Assembly: GCA_964434055.1 (NCBI GenBank)
Contig: CAYSSY010000002.1
Location: 16,076-69,557 of the forward strand
DNA length: 53,482 nt
From: an uncultured Gammaproteobacteria bacterium
GTDB taxonomy: Bacteria; Patescibacteriota; Patescibacteriia; UBA2196; CAYSSY01
Direction: 5' to 3'
In this document: positions 29,903-36,361 of the stretch, piece after piece
Position numbering within the stretch: the stretch's first letter is position 1
How the letters are laid out: each line of letters begins with the position of its first letter
Translations under genes and position numbers: made by a program
Notes under the pieces: model-generated
Database searches by the model: none
What the model saw: the letters and a program-made list of their open reading frames with translations, nothing else
Told to the model about the DNA's origin: nothing

Positions 29903-31474
29903 CTATTTCTTCGGTAAAAAAAATTTTTTAAAAACCTCAATCTCCGGTGATTTTAAATAATAAGTTAAAATAACATAGGTTAAAAGACCCAAACCGCCAG
30001 CAAACAACCCTTGTATTAACACACCCCAAAAGGTAGTCATATCAACAAAAAAAGAAAAAAATGGCTTAGCGATCTGAGTTACTAAAGCAGCCACTAAGGT
30101 AGCGAGACTAATCTTAATGACTGAAGCGAGAATTTGTTTCTCATCTAAATAACCAGCTCTCTGTCTTAAAATAATGAAAAGTAGAAGAACGTTAATAATA
30201 CTGGCAATGGAAAAAGCCAAAGCTAAGCCCTCAACACCAAATTTTTTCGTCAAAAAAAGTGATAAAATTAAATTTAAAATTAATGTAATTAGACTGATGA
30301 AAAAAGGAGTCTTGGTATCGTGTCGAGCGTAAAAAGCACGTGTAAAAATCGGCTGCACCCCTTGGGCAAAGAGAGATAAACAAAAAAATCCCAACGAATC
30401 AGCGGTTAAGATGGTGTCAGTCCAATCAAAATTACCAGCACCGAGAGTAACACGTACTATCTGAGCACGTAATAAAATTATTATGGCACTTAAGGGAATA
30501 ATTAGATAAAGCACCCGCCGAGTCGCCACTGAAAACTGAATCATATACCCCTCTTGATCGCCAGCACTATAACTTTCAGAGAAAGCCGGAAAAGCAGCGA
30601 GTGCTATTGAAATTGCAAAAATACCAATAGGAAAACTTTGCAAATTAAAAGCAAAATTAAATATGGCAAGAGAGCCTGCAGCCAAAGTTGAAGCAATAAT
30701 AGTTATAACAATCTGGTTAATCTGATTAATACCTAAAGCTACGGTGCGCGGCAACATTAACTTAATTACTTGTTTAACTTCTGGTAAATGCCAATTAAAG
30801 TGTCGGGACCAAAAAAAACCAGCCGCCATAATTGGTGGCACTTGAATCATCAAATGAAAAAAAGCTCCTAAAACTACCCCCCAAGCCAAACCAATGATCC
30901 CCAAAGGTTTAACCAAAAAAATAATTCCAAAAATTATGCCAAGATTATACATAATCGGTGCCAGGGAAAAAACAGCAAATTTCTTTAAAGAGTTTAAAAC
31001 ACCGCTAAAAACATTGCTAATACCAAAAAAAATAATGCTTAAAAGCATGATCCGTGTCAGTTTAACTGTTAGCTCAATTTTTTCCTGACTAAATCCTGGA
31101 GCAATTATTACCATCAGCTGACTAGCACCAAAAAAACATACCACCCCTAAAATTATTAAAACCAAAGTTAAAATATTTATAATGCCAGAAGCCAATTGCC
31201 AGGCTTTATGTCTTTCAGTCTCTGCTTGCCAAAGTTGAACAAAAACCGGAATAAAAGCCGCTGATAATGCGCCCAAAACAAGAGTGTTGAAAATTAAATC
31301 TGGCAGTTTAAAAGCGGCAAAATAAACATCAAGAATGTCTCCGGCGCCGAAATGCGAGGCCAGTAACCGATCACGAATTAAACCTAAAAAACGGGAAATA
31401 ATACTTAAAGCAGCAATTATGACTGCACCGCCGCCAATTGTCGTTTTTAATTTTTTAGATATTACCTGATACAT
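29903..31474 (-). CDS. murJ: Lipid II flippase MurJ (MviN)
   Basis: SRFLGLIRDRLLASHFG, AAFKLPDLIF, AAFIPVF, QSFPIGIF, RAFYARHDTKTP. Confidence 0.94.
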   Translation of the reverse strand: MYQVISKKLKTTIGGGAVIIAALSIISRFLGLIRDRLLASHFGAGDILDVYFAAFKLPDLIFNTLVLGALSAAFIPVFVQLWQAETERHKAWQLASGIINILTLVLIILGVVCFFGASQLMVIIAPGFSQEKIELTVKLTRIMLLSIIFFGISNVFSGVLNSLKKFAVFSLAPIMYNLGIIFGIIFLVKPLGIIGLAWGVVLGAFFHLMIQVPPIMAAGFFWSRHFNWHLPEVKQVIKLMLPRTVALGINQINQIVITIIASTLAAGSLAIFNFAFNLQSFPIGIFAISIALAAFPAFSESYSAGDQEGYMIQFSVATRRVLYLIIPLSAIIILLRAQIVRVTLGAGNFDWTDTILTADSLGFFCLSLFAQGVQPIFTRAFYARHDTKTPFFISLITLILNLILSLFLTKKFGVEGLALAFSIASIINVLLLFIILRQRAGYLDEKQILASVIKISLATLVAALVTQIAKPFFSFFVDMTTFWGVLIQGLFAGGLGLLTYVILTYYLKSPEIEVFKKFFLPKK

Positions 31475-31512
31475 TAATTTAATTCTATCATTTAACTTAA
31501 AATTTAAAAAGC

Positions 31513-31764
31513 AAAAAAAACCGGTAGGCTGCCGATTCTTGTCACCGAGTCTTAGACCATCACTTTAAATGATAATATAAGTATTGGGCGACTATCCAAA
31601 GTTTAAAGGGATAATGTTTTGAAGAGAAGAGAGATTTTGATTTTTTTACCTGTTATCGATGAAGAAAACAGGATTTGTTTATCTCCTCTAAACTCGTTTA
31701 AACCGGCAGCCTACCGGCTTCTCCTATTTTTAGGCAGAGCGCGCTTGATTGTGGTCTTTGATCT
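31513..31764 (-). ncRNA. Candidate structured non-coding RNA, unit 1 (~250 nt)
   Basis: Consensus promoter upstream; 14-bp closing stem 31521-31534/31704-31717 followed by T8 on the minus strand; internal stems with G-U pairs on the minus strand; no ORF or known family recognised. Confidence 0.6.
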
Positions 31765-31770
31765 TACTTA

Positions 31771-31798
31771 ATTATACTATTTTTTTAAAAATTGTCAA
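31771..31798 (-). promoter_or_regulatory. Sigma70-type promoter for RNA unit 1
   Basis: TTGACA (31793-31798), 16-nt spacer, TATAAT (31771-31776). Confidence 0.75.
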
Positions 31799-31858
31799 TT
31801 CTATTAAGATTTTATACAATATTAATACTGACCAATCAATTAAAACGCTAAACCTTTA

Positions 31859-32289
31859 TTAAGGAAAAATTTGGAGGTTAATCCGAAGTAAATTTAAAAA
31901 AATTTAGCTTCGATCCCCCAAAGACGAATCTTTAGTAGTGTCACTAAAAATTGTGACACGGTATTAAAGAGTTTCGTTGGTTATAAACGCACGGGGTACA
32001 TTATTCCCAACCTTAAGTCGCTTTAAAAAAGCAACGATCGGGAACGAGCACTATTTAGTCAAGAACAGACCAGTAAGGACCGGTCAAGGTGTCTTGATTA
32101 AAAAACAAGCGCCTAACCTCCAAATTTTTCCTTAAAAACACAAAAAGCAGCTTAAAGAGAAATATCTAAAGCCGCTTTTTGTGTTAGGTGTTAAGACAAA
32201 TATCTGTTTTATCTCGACACCTAAAAATTTAAGGCAAATCTCTCTTCGTTGAAATAAATATTTAAATTATTTTTTCAAAATTAATTTAA
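31859..32289 (-). ncRNA. Candidate structured non-coding RNA, unit 2 (~430 nt)
   Basis: Perfect promoter upstream; two 5' hairpins (32137-32185, 32185-32223); perfect 22-bp stem 31859-31880/32114-32135 enclosing a multibranch domain; no ORF. Confidence 0.6.
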
Positions 32290-32295
32290 CTGCTT

Positions 32296-32324
32296 ATTAT
32301 ACTCCTGTTAAACAAACTTGTCAA
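32296..32324 (-). promoter_or_regulatory. Sigma70-type promoter for RNA unit 2
   Basis: TTGACA (32319-32324), 17-nt spacer, TATAAT (32296-32301). Confidence 0.8.
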
Positions 32325-32387
32325 GTCAAATGCTAATTAATTTTATTTATAATTAGCAAAAAAGAGCTAATTTATTTAAAAAAAGCC

Positions 32388-32416
32388 TTGACAAATCCTA
32401 AAAAAAGACTTATAAT
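32388..32416 (+). promoter_or_regulatory. Sigma70-type promoter for the DUF11 adhesin gene
   Basis: TTGACA (32388-32393), 17-nt spacer, TATAAT (32411-32416). Confidence 0.8.
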
Positions 32417-32545
32417 AGCAAGTTAATAATTAAACTTTAATATAGAGAAGAGAGTTTGAGAATTAACTGTAAATTTCAAAAACTCTCATCTTTAAAAAAA
32501 GGGAGTTTTATTTTTTATCAATTTTGATAACTTAAAATTAAATAT

Positions 32546-35509
32546 ATGAAAAAATCTCAAAAAATATTTATTATTCTAGCTTTATCTTTAATTATAGCTA
32601 TTGTGTCTGTAAAAGATGTTTCTGCAACATCCAATCTCTGCGAAATAAACGCAGCTATAAATTATTCAGGGACGGATTATGTGAGTGTCTGCGCTTTTCA
32701 TAGTACCTGTCCTCAAGAAAGACTTAACGCAGCAACTGTTAATGTCTCTACAGCTGGCAACTACGAAGTCGAGGCTTATGTTTGGTACAACAGTGGTGAT
32801 GAACAAAAAAATGAAAGTTATTTTTTAGTTGTCAAAAACGCTAATGGCAATAAATCTTATCCTCTGGACGCTAATGCCGGCAAATATAAAGTAATCGCTG
32901 ATGATCCGGGCGATCCCCATGGTGCCACTCGCAAATCAGGAGTCTTTTATTTTGACCAAGGCATAAATACTATTGAACTTCATCATTATATCCAAATAGC
33001 CAGTCAGTATCCGGCCTATGTTGTGGCAGGACCAATTACCGGGCCAGAAAGTGTAAAAATTAAATCTTTAAAAATTAAATGCACTGTAACAGACCCGTGC
33101 ATAAATAACCACAAACCGGTTGCTAATGCCGGTTCTGATCAAACTGTCTTTTTGGGTGATACCGTTCAATTTGACGGCTCGCTGTCTAGCGATGCTGACG
33201 GTGACCAATTAACTTTTAAGTGGTATCTTGATAACGGTGCGGTTTTAGACGGCGACAAAGCTAGTTATGCAAATTTTGCCTTAGGCACACGTTATGTTAC
33301 CCTAACAGTTAATGATCAATGTAACTTGGTCCAAGACTACGTTTTAGTGCACGTCAATCCGAAAACCATAAATATAGTCAGCGATAAATTAGTTTCCGAC
33401 AATGATGAGATAAAAACTCACAGTAATACTTCTCGGCCAGGTGAGGAAATAATCTACACTTTAAAGATTGAGAATAAAAATTCTACCGCTATAAAAAATA
33501 TTCGACTGGAAGATAATTATGATCAAAACTATCTGATTGTTTTAAATCCAGATGGCGGTAGTGATAATGGTGATAAAATCAGTTGGCAACTTGGCGATCT
33601 TTCTTCTGGCGCTGTTGTCGAAAAAACAGTCAGAATGAAAATAAAAGATTCGATTACCAACAACCTAAACTTTAAAAACTACCTCTCTTGTCAGACAGAT
33701 AACGCTGGTAGCTGCGCTAATGAGGTAACTACTCAAGTGGTCTTACCGAATGTACCAGCTGAACTTTTTATCAGCAAAAGCGTTTCTGATAACAATGAAT
33801 CAAAAGTGGCTAACAATGTTGCTGAACGTAATGAATTATTAACTTATTACTTACGAGCTGAGAATCGAAGCCAGACGACAATAAAAAATTTGAGAATTGA
33901 AGATGATTATGATCAAAATTATACTGAAGTTATCTCATGGGAAACTGGCGGTAGTCATAATGGTGACAAAATTTCCTGGTCATTAGGAGATTTAGCACCC
34001 TATAGTGCTGTGGAAAAAACTATGATTGTGCGCGTTAAAGGTGATGTTGCTGATGAAACAAATTTTAAAAACTTTTTGCGTTCATATGCTGATAATGTCA
34101 GCTCTCAACAAAAAGAAGTCACAACCAGAATTGATGTTGTTAATCAAGATCAAGTTACATTGGCTCTCGATAAGACTGTTTCCGATAGTGATGAAACCAA
34201 TAAAGACTATACAAGTTCTCACAAAAATGAAGTTTTAACTTACCGCTTAGATTATCATGTTAATGGTCGCGGAATTGCCCGCAATGTTGTCCTGCGTGAT
34301 GATTATGACCAGCGCTATGTGCGTATTATTTCCACTGACGGCGGTTCAAACAATGGTAATGAGATTGTTTGGCAGTTGGGCAACCTGGAATCGGGTTACC
34401 ACACCACCCGTTATGTGACTGTCCAGATTGTTAATGATTTTGACAATAGCCTGGAAATAAGTAATTGGGCTTATTTAAGAGCTGATAACGCACCGGCCGT
34501 TGAAGACCGGGTCAGAACAAACATTGAAGGCAATATAGACAATCAAAATGCTTATTTAAATATTGTCAAAACTGTTTTTGACAATGACGAAAACGAAGTT
34601 CATCGCAACTCGGCTAATGTTGGCGAACAGTTGACTTATAAAATAAAAATTTCTAATAACTCCACAATGGTTGCCCAAAACGTCATTTTAACTGATGATT
34701 ATGATCAGAATAAAATTGTCATTATTTCCTTTACTGGCAATGCTAATGACAACGGTGACCAACTATCTTGGTCGATTGGAAATCTCGATCCAGGCAGGAC
34801 CGCTGAACGGTTTATAACCGCCAAAGTGAAAGAAAATCTGAGCGGTAATCCAATAGTCATTAATAACGTGGCTAAAGTTACCGGCAGTAATATTCAGACC
34901 ATGTCAGACCAAACTGTCACTACTGTAATTGCCAAACCAGAACTAAACGTCACCAAGACTGTCAGTGACAATGATGAATTCGATAGCCATAATAATACTG
35001 CTGAACCATTAGAAACATTACTGTATACTATAACTGTTGAAAATACTGGTTTAACAACTTTAGAAAATGTCGTGGTGATTGATAATTATGATGAGCGCTA
35101 TCTTAAAATTATTTCGACTGATAGTGGTACTGACGACGGACATGTTATTCGTTGGCAAATCAACAGTTTAAAAGCAGGTGAACAAACTACTAGAGTTTTA
35201 ACCGTTCAATTGAATGACCAGGTTAGAAATGGCCTAAACGTTCTTAATCGTGTGACAGCTACTGCAAACAATGTTAACCCTGATAATGATAGTACTTTAA
35301 CTTCTGTTTATATTCCCGGTGTTACAATAACCGCAACCTCAACTACTCCATATGCCCCGCGGACTGGTGCTGGTTTAATTTTTCCGGCTTTAGGCGGCCT
35401 GTCAGCTGGTTCACTCGCTGGTTTATCTTCATTCGCTTATCTTAAGAAAAAGAAAAAAGCCAAAAAAAATGATAATATTACAACTTCAATCAGATTTAAC
35501 CCGGCCTAA
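32546..35509 (+). CDS. Large secreted surface protein: PKD domain, five DUF11-like repeats, C-terminal sortase-type sorting signal
   Basis: Signal peptide; PKD (PVANAGSDQTV..FDGSLSSD); five ~130-aa repeats K-x-V-S-D-x-D-E...D-D/N-Y-D; APRTG + hydrophobic segment + KKKKKAKK. Confidence 0.85.
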   Translation: MKKSQKIFIILALSLIIAIVSVKDVSATSNLCEINAAINYSGTDYVSVCAFHSTCPQERLNAATVNVSTAGNYEVEAYVWYNSGDEQKNESYFLVVKNANGNKSYPLDANAGKYKVIADDPGDPHGATRKSGVFYFDQGINTIELHHYIQIASQYPAYVVAGPITGPESVKIKSLKIKCTVTDPCINNHKPVANAGSDQTVFLGDTVQFDGSLSSDADGDQLTFKWYLDNGAVLDGDKASYANFALGTRYVTLTVNDQCNLVQDYVLVHVNPKTINIVSDKLVSDNDEIKTHSNTSRPGEEIIYTLKIENKNSTAIKNIRLEDNYDQNYLIVLNPDGGSDNGDKISWQLGDLSSGAVVEKTVRMKIKDSITNNLNFKNYLSCQTDNAGSCANEVTTQVVLPNVPAELFISKSVSDNNESKVANNVAERNELLTYYLRAENRSQTTIKNLRIEDDYDQNYTEVISWETGGSHNGDKISWSLGDLAPYSAVEKTMIVRVKGDVADETNFKNFLRSYADNVSSQQKEVTTRIDVVNQDQVTLALDKTVSDSDETNKDYTSSHKNEVLTYRLDYHVNGRGIARNVVLRDDYDQRYVRIISTDGGSNNGNEIVWQLGNLESGYHTTRYVTVQIVNDFDNSLEISNWAYLRADNAPAVEDRVRTNIEGNIDNQNAYLNIVKTVFDNDENEVHRNSANVGEQLTYKIKISNNSTMVAQNVILTDDYDQNKIVIISFTGNANDNGDQLSWSIGNLDPGRTAERFITAKVKENLSGNPIVINNVAKVTGSNIQTMSDQTVTTVIAKPELNVTKTVSDNDEFDSHNNTAEPLETLLYTITVENTGLTTLENVVVIDNYDERYLKIISTDSGTDDGHVIRWQINSLKAGEQTTRVLTVQLNDQVRNGLNVLNRVTATANNVNPDNDSTLTSVYIPGVTITATSTTPYAPRTGAGLIFPALGGLSAGSLAGLSSFAYLKKKKKAKKNDNITTSIRFNPA

Positions 35510-35530
35510 AATATTCGTTGATAAAGAAAT

Positions 35531-36361
35531 ATGAACGGTAATCCTTATAATACTAACCAACTTGATGTTAAAAAAAGCAGCAAAAGAGCAATTGTTTTAT
35601 CATTAATAACTTTTGCCATTGTTTCTTTTGGCGCTGGTGTGACCATCTTTGCCTTACAGCAAAAAAACATTCAAGACAATAAATTATTGGCACTAAATTA
35701 TAGTTCTCCCATTAGTGGCATGGTTCTGGGAGCAAAAACAAATGTTAATCAAACTGTAAAAATTGCCGTTTATTCAAAAGAACTTGATCCTGATCAGGAT
35801 GGTTTGAATAATAAAATGGAAGAAATTTTAGGAACTGACCCGAACAATCCTGATACTGACAAAGACGGCAAAAAAGATGGCTATGAAATGAATGTTGGCG
35901 ATGATCCAACATCATTGGGAAAAATAAATACTTCAATTAATATCCCAAAAATAAAAATAACCGCACCGGTTATTTGGTCAGCTTCAACCGACGAAGCCAG
36001 TATTCAAAAAGACCTGCAAAAGGGAGTTATCCATTATCCAGGAACTTCTATGCCTGGTCAAACTGGTAATTCATTTATAACTGGCCATTCTTCTGACTAC
36101 AGTTGGACCAAAGGAAATTACAAAAATATTTTTAGTAATCTCCATAAACTTAATGTGGGTGATTCGGTAAAAATTGAATATAATCTACACAACGGACGAC
36201 GCATCACTTATGAATACAAAATAATTTCAGAAGACATAGTAATGCCGAACGACAGCCGTTTATTTGAAAAAACCAATAAGAAAATCTTGACCTTGGTCAC
36301 TTGTTGGCCGCTCAACTCGAGCTGGAAACGATTAATGTTTAAAGCGGTGCTGGTGGAATAA
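35531..36361 (+). CDS. Sortase with N-terminal TM and DxDxDG calcium-binding repeats
   Basis: GVIHYPGT..PGQTGNSFITGHS (His), LTLVTCWP (Cys), KRLMFKA (Arg); DPDQDG and DTDKDG repeats. Confidence 0.9.
   Translation: MNGNPYNTNQLDVKKSSKRAIVLSLITFAIVSFGAGVTIFALQQKNIQDNKLLALNYSSPISGMVLGAKTNVNQTVKIAVYSKELDPDQDGLNNKMEEILGTDPNNPDTDKDGKKDGYEMNVGDDPTSLGKINTSINIPKIKITAPVIWSASTDEASIQKDLQKGVIHYPGTSMPGQTGNSFITGHSSDYSWTKGNYKNIFSNLHKLNVGDSVKIEYNLHNGRRITYEYKIISEDIVMPNDSRLFEKTNKKILTLVTCWPLNSSWKRLMFKAVLVE

What the first reader, a model, noticed from the sequence alone, without database searches (positions are those of the whole stretch)
32417..32520. Attenuator-like leader of the adhesin gene, with a purine motif complementary to RNA unit 1
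The ~125-nt leader can form two mutually exclusive stems sharing AAACTCTC (32480-32487). One pairs with GAGAGTTT (32450-32457), an anti-terminator. The other pairs with GGGAGTTT (32501-32508) and is followed by TATTTTTT, a terminator. The anti-terminator 5' arm sits in AGAGAAGAGAG-TTTGA (32444-32459). This nearly matches plus-strand AGAGAAGAGAGATTTTGA (31623-31640), so the minus-strand unit-1 RNA carries its complement. A third copy, GAAGAGAGATTT, lies in the unit-2 transcript (plus strand 32236-32247). Inference: unit 1 could pair with the leader, free the terminator and switch off the adhesin-sortase operon.
Basis: inference. Interest (0 to 1): 0.68.

Follow-up and report, generated by a model that had tools for sequence, protein, structure and literature searches.

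The report
Surface-protein mRNA leader with possible small-RNA switch
The untranslated start of a highly expressed surface-protein gene in an uncultured ultra-small (CPR) bacterium folds into a strong hairpin whose first arm can pair with a neighbouring, expressed small RNA, so an RNA-controlled off-switch is plausible; the proposed stop signal is weak and the switch is unproven.

Summary
A 12/12 consensus promoter (32388-32416) gives a ~123-nt leader. It holds a strong 14-bp hairpin (32443-32494, -16.7 kcal/mol, z -3.9). The hairpin's 3' arm can instead pair with GGGAGTTTT (32501-32509), followed by a T-run.

That second hairpin is a poor terminator: 13-nt loop, -7 to -8 kcal/mol, and the standard scan does not call it. 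Metatranscriptome contigs from two samples run straight through it into the gene.

The purine motif is real. GAAGAGAG occurs 4 times in 107 kb of both strands, 3 of them here. Unit 1 is a minus-strand, highly structured RNA seen in three metatranscriptomes. Its complementary CU stretch is predicted to be single-stranded, and the leader is its best predicted target in the whole window (-20.2 kcal/mol).

Unit 1 was undetected in the samples where the adhesin-sortase operon is expressed. However, pairing barely beats the folded hairpin (-3.8 kcal/mol), statistical support is modest (p about 0.001-0.05, post hoc), and no related genome carries the region, so covariation cannot be tested.

Verdict: a plausible but unproven small-RNA-responsive leader, resembling countertranscript-driven attenuation with a trans-encoded regulator. 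The organism is a Patescibacteria (CPR) bacterium from sludge and wastewater.

The parts
32388..32416 (+). Promoter of the adhesin-sortase operon (TTGACA-17-TATAAT, 12/12). Predicted start of transcription about 32423.
   Evidence: Only four 12/12 promoters exist in the 53 kb: the three in this intergenic region and the RNase P RNA promoter, whose -10 ends 9 nt before the Rfam match.
32423..32545 (+). 5' leader (about 123 nt) of the surface-protein mRNA.
   Evidence: MFE -23.2 kcal/mol, z -2.86. RNA contigs cover it from 32456 or 32469 onwards. No Rfam family matches.
32443..32494 (+). Hairpin A, the default structure (anti-terminator in the switch model): 6+8 bp around a 1x1 loop.
   Evidence: dG -16.7, z -3.9, 1 of 1000 shuffles. 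It forms as soon as 32494 leaves the polymerase.
32444..32459 (+). Purine motif AGAGAAGAGAGTTTGA: the 5' arm of hairpin A and the proposed docking site for unit 1.
   Evidence: Duplex with the unit-1 seed is -20.2 kcal/mol. Opening the site in the folded leader costs 12.4.
32479..32509 (+). Alternative, terminator-like hairpin AAAACTCTC / GGGAGTTTT with a 13-nt loop. It shares 32479-32487 with hairpin A.
   Evidence: dG -7.2 to -8.2. Not called by the standard scan. It forms only when 32444-32459 is blocked.
32510..32516 (+). T-run (ATTTTTT) after the alternative hairpin.
32546..35509 (+). 987-aa secreted surface protein (PKD plus five DUF11 repeats) ending in APRTG, a hydrophobic segment and a KKKKKAKK tail.
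   Evidence: Expressed in X9, X44, X20 and X45. No close homologue exists.
35531..36361 (+). Sortase (TLVTC motif), co-transcribed with the surface protein.
   Evidence: RNA contig 35343-35682 spans the gene junction.
31771..31798 (-). Promoter of unit 1 (12/12).
31507..31731 (-). Unit 1: a structured RNA closed by a 31-bp helix, with its terminator at 31540-31516.
   Evidence: z -7.45. Strand asymmetry favours the minus strand. RNA contigs in X19, X23 and X28.
31623..31640 (-). Unit-1 seed UCAAAAUCUCUCUUCUCU, complementary to the leader and unit-2 motifs.
   Evidence: Predicted unpaired; opening cost 1.3-1.9 kcal/mol. Best non-self target in the window is the leader.
32296..32324 (-). Promoter of unit 2 (12/12), divergent from the adhesin promoter.
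32128..32289 (-). Unit 2, 5' part, ending in terminator hairpin 32181-32141.
   Evidence: hairpin -15.1; G-U on the minus strand where the plus strand has A-C. RNA contig 31963-32201.
32236..32247 (-). Third motif copy, GAAGAGAGAUUU, in unit 2: a possible decoy for unit 1.
   Evidence: 12 bp, -17.6; opening cost 1.8. Cofold gain -8.5 kcal/mol.
31856..32138 (-). Structured element 'M' downstream in unit 2, closed by a 25-bp helix.
   Evidence: RNA contig 31871-32073.
32332..32357 (.). Palindrome GCTAATTA-N10-TAATTAGC between the two divergent promoters: a candidate operator.
   Evidence: read from the sequence only; not tested.

Best explanation
The stretch is the 5' leader of a very strongly promoted operon encoding a sortase-anchored surface protein and its sortase, in a Patescibacteria (CPR) bacterium.

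On its own the leader folds into hairpin A (32443-32494). Transcription then runs on into the gene. This is the default state and the state seen in the RNA data.

I think the most likely function is that the leader responds to unit 1. Unit 1 is a neighbouring, abundant, structured small RNA read from the minus strand. Its exposed CU-rich stretch (31640-31623) pairs with the purine 5' arm of hairpin A while the leader is being made.

That pairing leaves AAACUCUC free to pair with GGGAGUUUU in front of the U-run. This lowers read-through, and/or it exposes the mRNA to cleavage and decay.

Unit 2 is transcribed divergently from the adhesin promoter and carries the same purine motif. It would act as a decoy for unit 1.

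Shown: the sequences, the promoters, the stability of hairpin A, expression of unit 1 and of the operon, and read-through.

Inferred: the strand of unit 1, the pairing itself, and any effect on the operon. Within this explanation I put termination against processing/decay at roughly 60:40.
For: - Hairpin A is far more stable than chance (z -3.9). It shares its 3' arm with a U-run-followed hairpin.
- In-silico co-transcriptional folding switches from hairpin A to the terminator hairpin only when 32444-32459 is blocked.
- Motif statistics: exact 11-mer at only two sites in 53 kb; 3 of 4 GAAGAGAG copies lie within 830 bp; composition-weighted shared word reached in 5 of 300 shuffles.
- The unit-1 seed is predicted single-stranded. 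Its best non-self duplex in 107 kb of strand sequence is the leader site, and the unit-2 site ranks about 9th.
- Unit 1 is expressed. Its level is condition-dependent relative to RNase P RNA: 2 against 5.5 in X19, but undetected against 828 in X9.
- In X9, X44 and X20 the operon is expressed and unit 1 is not detected. Unit 2/M contigs are present in X9 and X20.
- 12/12 promoters mark only these three units and RNase P RNA.
- Precedents exist: Anti-Q favours a factor-independent terminator in nascent prgQ transcripts (PMC3181467), and RnaG promotes premature termination of icsA (PMC2879508).
Against: - The terminator hairpin is weak: 13-nt loop, -7 to -8 kcal/mol. The genome's gene-end terminators are -12 to -18 with 3-9-nt loops.
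- Contigs from two RNA samples read through it. No short leader transcript was observed.
- The sRNA-bound state is only -3.8 kcal/mol better than the folded hairpin. The window for co-transcriptional capture is about 35 nt.
- The switch architecture turns up in 7% of shuffles. The alignment-based significance of the leader/unit-1 match is only about 0.05. All statistics are post hoc.
- The expression anticorrelation rests on 7 low-depth contig sets. It is informative in one direction only, because in X19, X23 and X28 the organism is too rare to judge the adhesin.
- No covariation test is possible.
Confidence: 0.42

Rival explanations
1. Constitutive leader. Hairpin A is simply a stable structural, mRNA-protecting element in the 5' UTR of a very highly expressed surface-protein mRNA. 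The weak downstream hairpin plus T-run is incidental in 35% G+C DNA. The shared purine motif is a remnant of local (inverted) duplication among the three transcription units and has no regulatory pairing.
For: - The 12/12 promoter and full-length expression with read-through.
- A weak, atypical terminator.
- The switch architecture is common in shuffles and genomic tiles.
- Unit 1 (+) and unit 2 (-) share about 62 nt of similarity, reached in 4 of 500 shuffles, which points to duplication.
- Thermodynamics favour hairpin A once it has formed.
Against: - It does not explain why the only three neighbouring GAAGAGAG copies sit in three adjacent RNAs, in orientations that make one RNA complementary to the other two.
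- It does not explain why the copy in unit 1 lies in an open, A-flanked single-stranded stretch.
- Hairpin A begins about 21 nt from the predicted 5' end. Classical 5' stabilisers sit at the very end (own knowledge).
Confidence: 0.36
2. Shared protein site. The purine motif (RNA or DNA) is a binding site for one regulator, an RNA-binding protein or a transcription factor, that acts on all three units. RNA-RNA pairing is irrelevant.
For: - Three copies lie in three adjacent, strongly promoted units.
- A separate palindrome between the divergent promoters hints at protein control of the locus.
Against: - The unit-1 copy is on the opposite strand of the RNA, so a single RNA-binding protein would not see the same sequence.
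- As DNA sites they lie 20-130 bp inside the transcribed regions.
- No candidate regulator gene is adjacent.
Confidence: 0.08
3. Leader-peptide attenuation. The 23-codon TTG ORF (32456-32527) is translated. Ribosome position, not an sRNA, decides between hairpin A and the terminator hairpin.
For: The ORF spans both the 3' arm of hairpin A and the terminator hairpin, and it stops 19 nt before the ATG.
Against: - The TTG start is buried in the stem of hairpin A.
- The peptide has no run of regulatory codons.
- ORFs of this size are expected by chance.
- The genome shows no SD use, so there is no positive signal for initiation.
Confidence: 0.03

Closest known systems
Anti-Q / prgQ leader (IRS1) of Enterococcus faecalis plasmid pCF10
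   Same: A small RNA interacts with nascent leader transcripts to favour a factor-independent terminator. Excess target transcription titrates the sRNA, and the controlled operon includes a surface adhesin, PrgB (PMC3181467, PMC8265641). The logic is the same as unit 1, the leader and the unit-2 decoy.
   Different: Anti-Q is encoded in cis, antisense to its target, with long complementarity. It is plasmid-borne and experimentally proven. Here the regulator lies 800 bp away, pairs through 11+5 nt only, and nothing has been tested.
RnaG / icsA of Shigella flexneri; countertranscript attenuation in pT181 and pIP501
   Same: An antisense RNA promotes premature termination in the leader of a surface/virulence protein gene by changing the fold of the nascent RNA (PMC2879508; pT181 and pIP501 from own knowledge and the reference list of PMC3181467).
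   Different: All are cis-antisense RNAs with loop-loop kissing and strong terminators. The present terminator is weak, and the proposed contact is a linear seed against a stem arm.
Trans-encoded seed-type sRNAs with sponge/decoy RNAs (for example ChiX and the chb decoy; own knowledge)
   Same: A short exposed seed in a structured, terminator-ended sRNA; a second transcript carrying the same target motif could titrate it.
   Different: Those sRNAs act mostly on translation or decay at ribosome-binding sites with Hfq. This genome shows no SD use, and the site is 100 nt upstream of the start codon.
5'-UTR-derived sRNAs such as Listeria Rli51
   Same: Unit 1 sits directly upstream of murJ and ends in a terminator, like a leader that accumulates as a stable RNA and also acts in trans (title of PMC11394854).
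   Different: There is no evidence that unit 1 controls murJ. Relatives have only 108-190 nt upstream of murJ and no similar RNA.
5' stabiliser hairpins of highly expressed envelope or secreted-protein mRNAs (ompA, aprE; own knowledge)
   Same: A stable hairpin in the long 5' UTR of a very highly expressed envelope protein gene.
   Different: Such stabilisers sit at the extreme 5' end. Hairpin A starts at about +21 of the predicted transcript, and the 5' end has not been mapped.

Membership tests
Intrinsic (Rho-independent) terminator | G+C-rich stem with a short loop (about 3-8 nt) | tested here: not met
   9 pairs, only 3 of them G-C, with a 13-nt loop and dG -7.2 to -8.2. Not listed by the consensus scan. 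It lies at the weak end of a relaxed scan in which gene-end terminators score -12 to -18.
Intrinsic (Rho-independent) terminator | U-run directly 3' of the stem | tested here: met
   AUUUUUU at 32510-32516 follows the stem.
Intrinsic (Rho-independent) terminator | RNA 3' ends at the U-run | tested here: inconclusive
   Only assembled contigs were available. Two of them (32456-32771, 32469-32994) read through. Contigs cannot show a minority of terminated ends.
Antisense / countertranscript-driven transcription attenuation (pT181, pIP501, pCF10 Anti-Q, RnaG) | Leader with mutually exclusive anti-terminator and terminator folds | tested here: met
   Met in silico only. Hairpin A (-16.7) and the terminator hairpin (-8.2) share 32479-32487.
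Antisense / countertranscript-driven transcription attenuation (pT181, pIP501, pCF10 Anti-Q, RnaG) | Regulator RNA complementary to the leader upstream of the terminator, and expressed | tested here: met
   11 perfect bp plus 5 more after a 2-nt bulge, -20.2 kcal/mol. Unit-1 RNA appears in three metatranscriptomes. Its strand is inferred, not measured.
Antisense / countertranscript-driven transcription attenuation (pT181, pIP501, pCF10 Anti-Q, RnaG) | Regulator encoded in cis on the opposite strand, with extended complementarity | tested here: not met
   Unit 1 lies 800 bp away. Similarity to the leader is limited to the 18-nt motif.
Antisense / countertranscript-driven transcription attenuation (pT181, pIP501, pCF10 Anti-Q, RnaG) | Regulator-dependent increase in terminated transcripts | not testable with these tools
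   Needs in vitro transcription or read-level 3'-end data.
Curated cis-regulatory RNA families (riboswitches, T-box, protein-binding leaders; Rfam 15) | Covariance-model match | tested here: not met
   No match at gathering score in the window except RNase P RNA. At E up to 10 in 31300-32700 there are only chance-level hits, at best E 0.12.
Ribosome-mediated (leader-peptide) attenuation | Translated leader ORF overlapping the alternative stems | tested here: inconclusive
   A 23-codon TTG ORF at 32456-32527 exists. Its start lies in the stem of hairpin A, and there is no initiation signal to judge by in this SD-less genome.
6S RNA (considered for unit 1) | Match to the 6S covariance models / rod with a central bubble | tested here: not met
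   No 6S-type hit at E up to 10. The predicted fold is a 31-bp closing helix around a multi-branch core.
5'-terminal stabiliser hairpin | Hairpin within a few nt of the mRNA 5' end | tested here: inconclusive
   Hairpin A begins about 21 nt after the predicted start. The real 5' end is unmapped; RNA contigs start at 32456 and 32469.

The most novel reading that the evidence does not exclude
A three-RNA circuit in an ultra-small CPR bacterium.
- Unit 1 is an abundant structured small RNA. Through a short exposed CU seed, it captures the nascent leader of the cell's major sortase-anchored surface protein and flips it into a terminator.
- Unit 2 is a divergently transcribed decoy RNA carrying the same purine motif, and it titrates unit 1.

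This would be the first riboregulator described in Patescibacteria, and a natural trans-encoded, seed-type version of countertranscript attenuation controlling a likely host-attachment protein.
Probability: 0.2. Interest if true: 0.72.

Novelty: new variant of a known kind. Interest (0 to 1): 0.5.

Why it matters
To my knowledge, almost nothing is known about RNA-based regulation in CPR/Patescibacteria; a full-text literature search found no paper on Patescibacteria small RNAs. These are tiny, mostly episymbiotic bacteria whose surface proteins probably mediate attachment to hosts. Here, three of the four perfect-consensus promoters in 53 kb sit within about 600 bp. Together they drive two unclassified, expressed, highly structured RNAs and an orphan sortase-substrate surface protein.

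If the leader really senses unit 1, it would show that attenuation by a trans-encoded short-seed sRNA exists in nature outside plasmid antisense systems. It would also give a handle on how these organisms switch a major surface protein on and off.

If it does not, the locus still yields two new abundant ncRNAs worth describing.

Tried and rejected
- Known families: Rfam at gathering and permissive thresholds, and tRNA/tmRNA search, found nothing in the region.
- Relatives through MurJ: GTDB genomes, JGI metagenomes and the 5.8-billion-protein set. Beyond near-identical strains, the next relatives are 73% identical (L077, only 76 nt upstream) and 58% or less with different synteny.
- BLASTN of the four RNA segments against all loci found nothing. 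The motif is absent from all 81 loci and the unit-1 seed from IMG/VR.
- Adhesin homologues: only PKD-domain hits for the full length and none for the N-terminal 190 aa.
- Strain-level variation: too little to test pairing. There is one +T after 32490 in the leader; the other SNPs and indels fall in predicted loops or a promoter spacer.
- Whole-RNA duplexfold against 125-nt tiles was meaningless because it allows huge loops. It was replaced by a 32-nt seed against 40-nt tiles.
- The length-only longest-common-word test was uninformative in this A+T-rich DNA. It was replaced by a composition-weighted test.
- MITE or mobile-element origin of the long-helix RNAs: no other copy in the window, and a similar number of DNA runs hold unit 1 and a murJ control (17 against 13).
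- SD-sequestration models were rejected because this genome shows no SD use.
- Unit 1 as a conserved murJ leader was rejected because relatives lack it.

Full report
**1. What is there**

The window (about 35% G+C) comes from a Patescibacteria (CPR) bacterium found in activated sludge, wastewater and digesters. Its MurJ is closest to Moranbacteria- and Kuenenbacteria-type genomes.

The finding lies in a 1.07-kb non-coding stretch. On one side is murJ (minus strand, 29903-31474). On the other is a 987-aa secreted protein (32546-35509) with one PKD and five DUF11 repeats. That protein ends in APRTG, a hydrophobic segment and a lysine-rich tail, and a sortase with the TLVTC motif follows it (35531-36361). 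'Adhesin-sortase operon' is therefore a fair label. RNA contig 35343-35682 bridges the two genes.

The spacer holds three perfect TTGACA-N16/17-TATAAT promoters:
- plus strand 32388-32416, for the adhesin;
- minus strand 32324-32296, for 'unit 2';
- minus strand 31798-31771, for 'unit 1'.

In the whole 53 kb only one other 12/12 promoter exists, and it drives RNase P RNA. Perfect promoters in this genome therefore mark very strongly expressed RNAs.

**2. The observation**

With the start of transcription predicted at about 32423, the leader is 123 nt. The prediction assumes the same -10-to-start distance as at RNase P RNA.

UAGAGA-A-GAGAGUUU (32443-32457) pairs with AAACUCUC-A-UCUUUA (32480-32494), giving 14 bp at -16.7 kcal/mol. 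This hairpin is clearly non-random: z -3.9, 1 of 1000 shuffles, and the top 1.4% of all 58-nt tiles of the window.

The alternative hairpin, AAAACUCUC (32479-32487) with GGGAGUUUU (32501-32509), is followed by AUUUUUU. It is weak: 3 G-C, 1 G-U and 5 A-U pairs, a 13-nt loop, and -7.2 to -8.2 kcal/mol. The consensus terminator scan does not report it. In a relaxed scan it sits at the bottom of a list whose gene-end members score -12 to -18 with loops of 3-9 nt.

As pure combinatorics, 'two exclusive stems of at least 8 bp plus a T-rich tail' occurs in 6.9% of shuffles of the leader and 1.8% of genomic tiles.

**3. The motif**

- AGAGAAGAGAG occurs exactly only at 31623 and 32444 in the window.
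- GAAGAGAGATTT occurs exactly only at 31626 (+) and 32247-32236 (-).
- GAAGAGAG occurs four times on both strands of 53 kb, and three of those lie within 830 bp here.
- A length-only test is uninformative, because A+T-rich words of 11-12 nt are shared by chance in half of shuffles.
- Weighted by composition, the shared word is reached in 5 of 300 shuffles.
- Local alignment gives about 0.05 for leader against unit 1, and 0.008 for unit 1 (+) against unit 2 (-). In the latter pair, similarity runs for about 62 nt (31626-31687 against 32247-32186), which suggests an inverted duplication.

The recurrence is therefore more than chance, but only moderately so, and it was noticed post hoc.

**4. Are the partner RNAs real, and on which strand?**

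Unit 1 (31507-31731) folds into a 31-bp closing helix around a branched core (z -7.45). Unit 2 contains a terminator-ended 5' part (32289-32128) and a 283-nt element, 'M' (31856-32138), closed by a 25-bp helix (z about -11). Neither matches any Rfam family.

Both fold better on the minus strand, with more G-U pairs: -81.8 against -67.9 for unit 1, and -106.9 against -93.7 for M. This agrees with the minus-strand promoters and T-run terminators.

Public metatranscriptomes contain the following:
- Unit-1 contigs 31531-31698 (X19), 31546-31696 (X23) and 31587-31678 (X28). Nothing else from 29.8-36.5 kb appears in those runs.
- Unit 2/M contigs 31871-32073 (X20) and 31963-32201 (X9).
- A murJ control segment is found in 13 runs, none of them RNA. 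Unit 1 is found in 20 runs, three of them RNA.

In X19, unit 1 (depth 2) is in the same class as RNase P RNA (5.5). In X9, RNase P RNA reaches 828 and mRNAs 4-12, while unit 1 is undetected. Unit 1 is therefore an abundant but condition-dependent RNA. Strand was not measured, because contigs carry no direction.

**5. Does the leader terminate?**

In X9, X44, X20 and X45 the operon is covered from 32456 or 32469 to 36190, while murJ has no coverage. This is RNA, not contaminating DNA.

Contigs 32456-32771 and 32469-32994 cross the proposed terminator. Read-through is therefore the observed state in these samples, which are also the ones where unit 1 is undetected.

In the three runs with unit 1, the organism is too rare for absence of the adhesin mRNA to mean anything. 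Contigs also cannot reveal a fraction of terminated ends.

**6. Energetics and kinetics**

- The unit-1 stretch AAAAAAAUCAAAAUCUCUCUUCUCUUCAAAAC is predicted to be open (1.3-1.9 kcal/mol to unpair).
- Its duplex with the leader is 11 perfect pairs plus UUUGA/UCAAA after a 2-nt bulge, -20.2 kcal/mol. This is the best non-self hit among all 40-nt tiles of both strands of the window. The next hits (-19.4, -19.0 and so on) lie in coding sequence. The unit-2 site (12 bp, -17.6) ranks about ninth.
- Folding growing transcripts shows that hairpin A closes as soon as its 3' arm emerges. The terminator hairpin then never forms. With 32444-32459 blocked, the terminator hairpin is the only structure present when the polymerase is on the U-run.
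- Opening the site in the finished leader costs 12.4 kcal/mol.
- Cofolding favours 'sRNA bound plus terminator hairpin' over 'hairpin A plus free sRNA' by only -3.8 kcal/mol. The gain is -7.3 before the 3' arm exists, and -8.5 for unit 1 with unit 2.

Regulation would therefore have to be kinetic, with capture of the nascent purine arm within about 35 nt of synthesis. That needs a very abundant sRNA. A perfect promoter and the very small cell volume of CPR bacteria (own knowledge) make this conceivable, but it is inference.

**7. Other readings**

- This genome shows essentially no Shine-Dalgarno use: 1 of 36 ORFs has a GGAG-type word within 30 nt of the start. Neither the purine motif nor GGGAG is therefore a ribosome-binding site, and SD-masking models do not apply.
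- A 23-codon TTG ORF (32456-32527) spans both alternative stems, but its start is buried in hairpin A.
- The palindrome GCTAATTA-N10-TAATTAGC (32332-32357) lies between the divergent unit-2 and adhesin promoters. It could be a protein operator, so transcription initiation may be the main control point.
- The plain alternative is that hairpin A is a constitutive structural or protective element of a very highly expressed mRNA, and that the motif copies are duplication remnants.

**8. Comparative test not possible**

Near-identical strains show almost no variation: a SNP at 31788 in a promoter spacer, a SNP at 32227, one-base indels at 31896 and 31945 in predicted loops, and +T after 32490 in X44. 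The last changes hairpin A from -16.7 to -15.1 and leaves the terminator hairpin unchanged.

The next MurJ relatives are 73% identical (contig too short) and 58% or less. In the latter, pyrG or an unrelated gene sits 108-190 nt upstream and there is no similar RNA. The adhesin has no homologue beyond its repeat domains.

**9. Comparison with known systems**

The logic matches countertranscript-driven attenuation.
[quoted passage not shown] The operon it controls includes the adhesin PrgB (PMC8265641).
- RnaG promotes premature termination of icsA (PMC2879508).

The defining cis-antisense arrangement with long complementarity is not met here. The regulator is trans-encoded with an 11+5-nt seed, and a decoy-like third RNA is present. 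I therefore say it may work like these systems, but I do not file it as a member of that family.

**10. Verdict**

Unit 1 is real, accessible and best matched to this leader, and expression patterns are compatible. But the terminator is weak, read-through is what is seen, thermodynamics are marginal, statistics are modest, and no covariation or 3'-end evidence exists.
- I put about 0.42 on a functional unit-1/leader interaction that lowers operon expression, split roughly 60:40 between termination and decay. I put about 0.36 on a constitutive leader with incidental motif sharing. The rest goes to protein-site and leader-peptide models.

Noticed in passing
window 31507-31731 (minus strand): Unit 1 is an unclassified 225-nt RNA with a 31-bp closing helix (z -7.45). 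RNA contigs from two independent runs end at 31698 and 31696, the inner edge of that helix. This suggests processing, perhaps RNase III-like, to a core of about 168 nt. The RNA sits directly upstream of murJ, which has no strong promoter of its own.
   Followed up: partly
window 31856-32138 (minus strand): A second unclassified structured RNA ('M'), 283 nt with a 25-bp, 96% complementary closing helix (z about -11). It is expressed in two digester metatranscriptomes. Strain indels at 31896 and 31945 fall in predicted hairpin loops. No other copy exists in the window, so it is not obviously a MITE.
   Followed up: partly
window 31626-31687 (+) versus 32247-32186 (-): About 62 nt of similarity between the plus strand of unit 1 and the minus strand of unit 2 (4 of 500 shuffles), consistent with an inverted duplication. 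It makes the two minus-strand RNAs partly complementary; cofold gain is -8.5 kcal/mol.
   Followed up: partly
window 32332-32357: Perfect 8-bp inverted repeat GCTAATTA-N10-TAATTAGC between the divergent unit-2 and adhesin promoters, with a third half-site, GCTAATTT, at 32366-32373. It is a candidate operator for a shared transcription factor.
   Followed up: no
whole window (36 ORFs of at least 150 aa): Only one ORF has a GGAG/GAGG/AGGA/GGGA word within 30 nt upstream of its start. This organism appears not to use Shine-Dalgarno sequences.
   Followed up: partly
window 11459-11486 (minus strand) and 11017-11450: RNase P RNA (class A, 149 bits) has the only other 12/12 promoter in the window. 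Contigs in two RNA runs skip 11048-11342. These are probably chimeric with, or derived from, other organisms' RNase P RNA.
   Followed up: no
window 11614-11970 (plus strand): A stretch with an 11/12 promoter (11563-11592) and a bidirectional terminator (11968-11996) is highly expressed in X9 (depth 45, against 4-12 for mRNAs). It holds a 94-aa ORF (11645-11929) and has no Rfam match.
   Followed up: partly
window 35300-35509 and 35531-36361: The surface protein's sorting signal is APRTG rather than LPXTG. The sortase carries a TSP3-type calcium-binding repeat ahead of its catalytic domain. The protein's N-terminal 190 aa have no detectable homologue in 5.8 billion proteins.
   Followed up: partly
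window 31603-31611 (minus-strand RNA) versus 32498-32504: A second short complementarity: UCCCUUU in unit 1 against AAAGGGA in the leader, which is part of the terminator's 3' arm. It is the intermolecular contact in the cofold MFE with the full leader. It is 7 bp and probably chance; if real, it would oppose termination.
   Followed up: no
window 31788: A three-allele site (A, C, T) in the spacer of the unit-1 promoter across sludge, sediment and soil metagenomes. It is the most variable position seen in the 1.5 kb examined.
   Followed up: no
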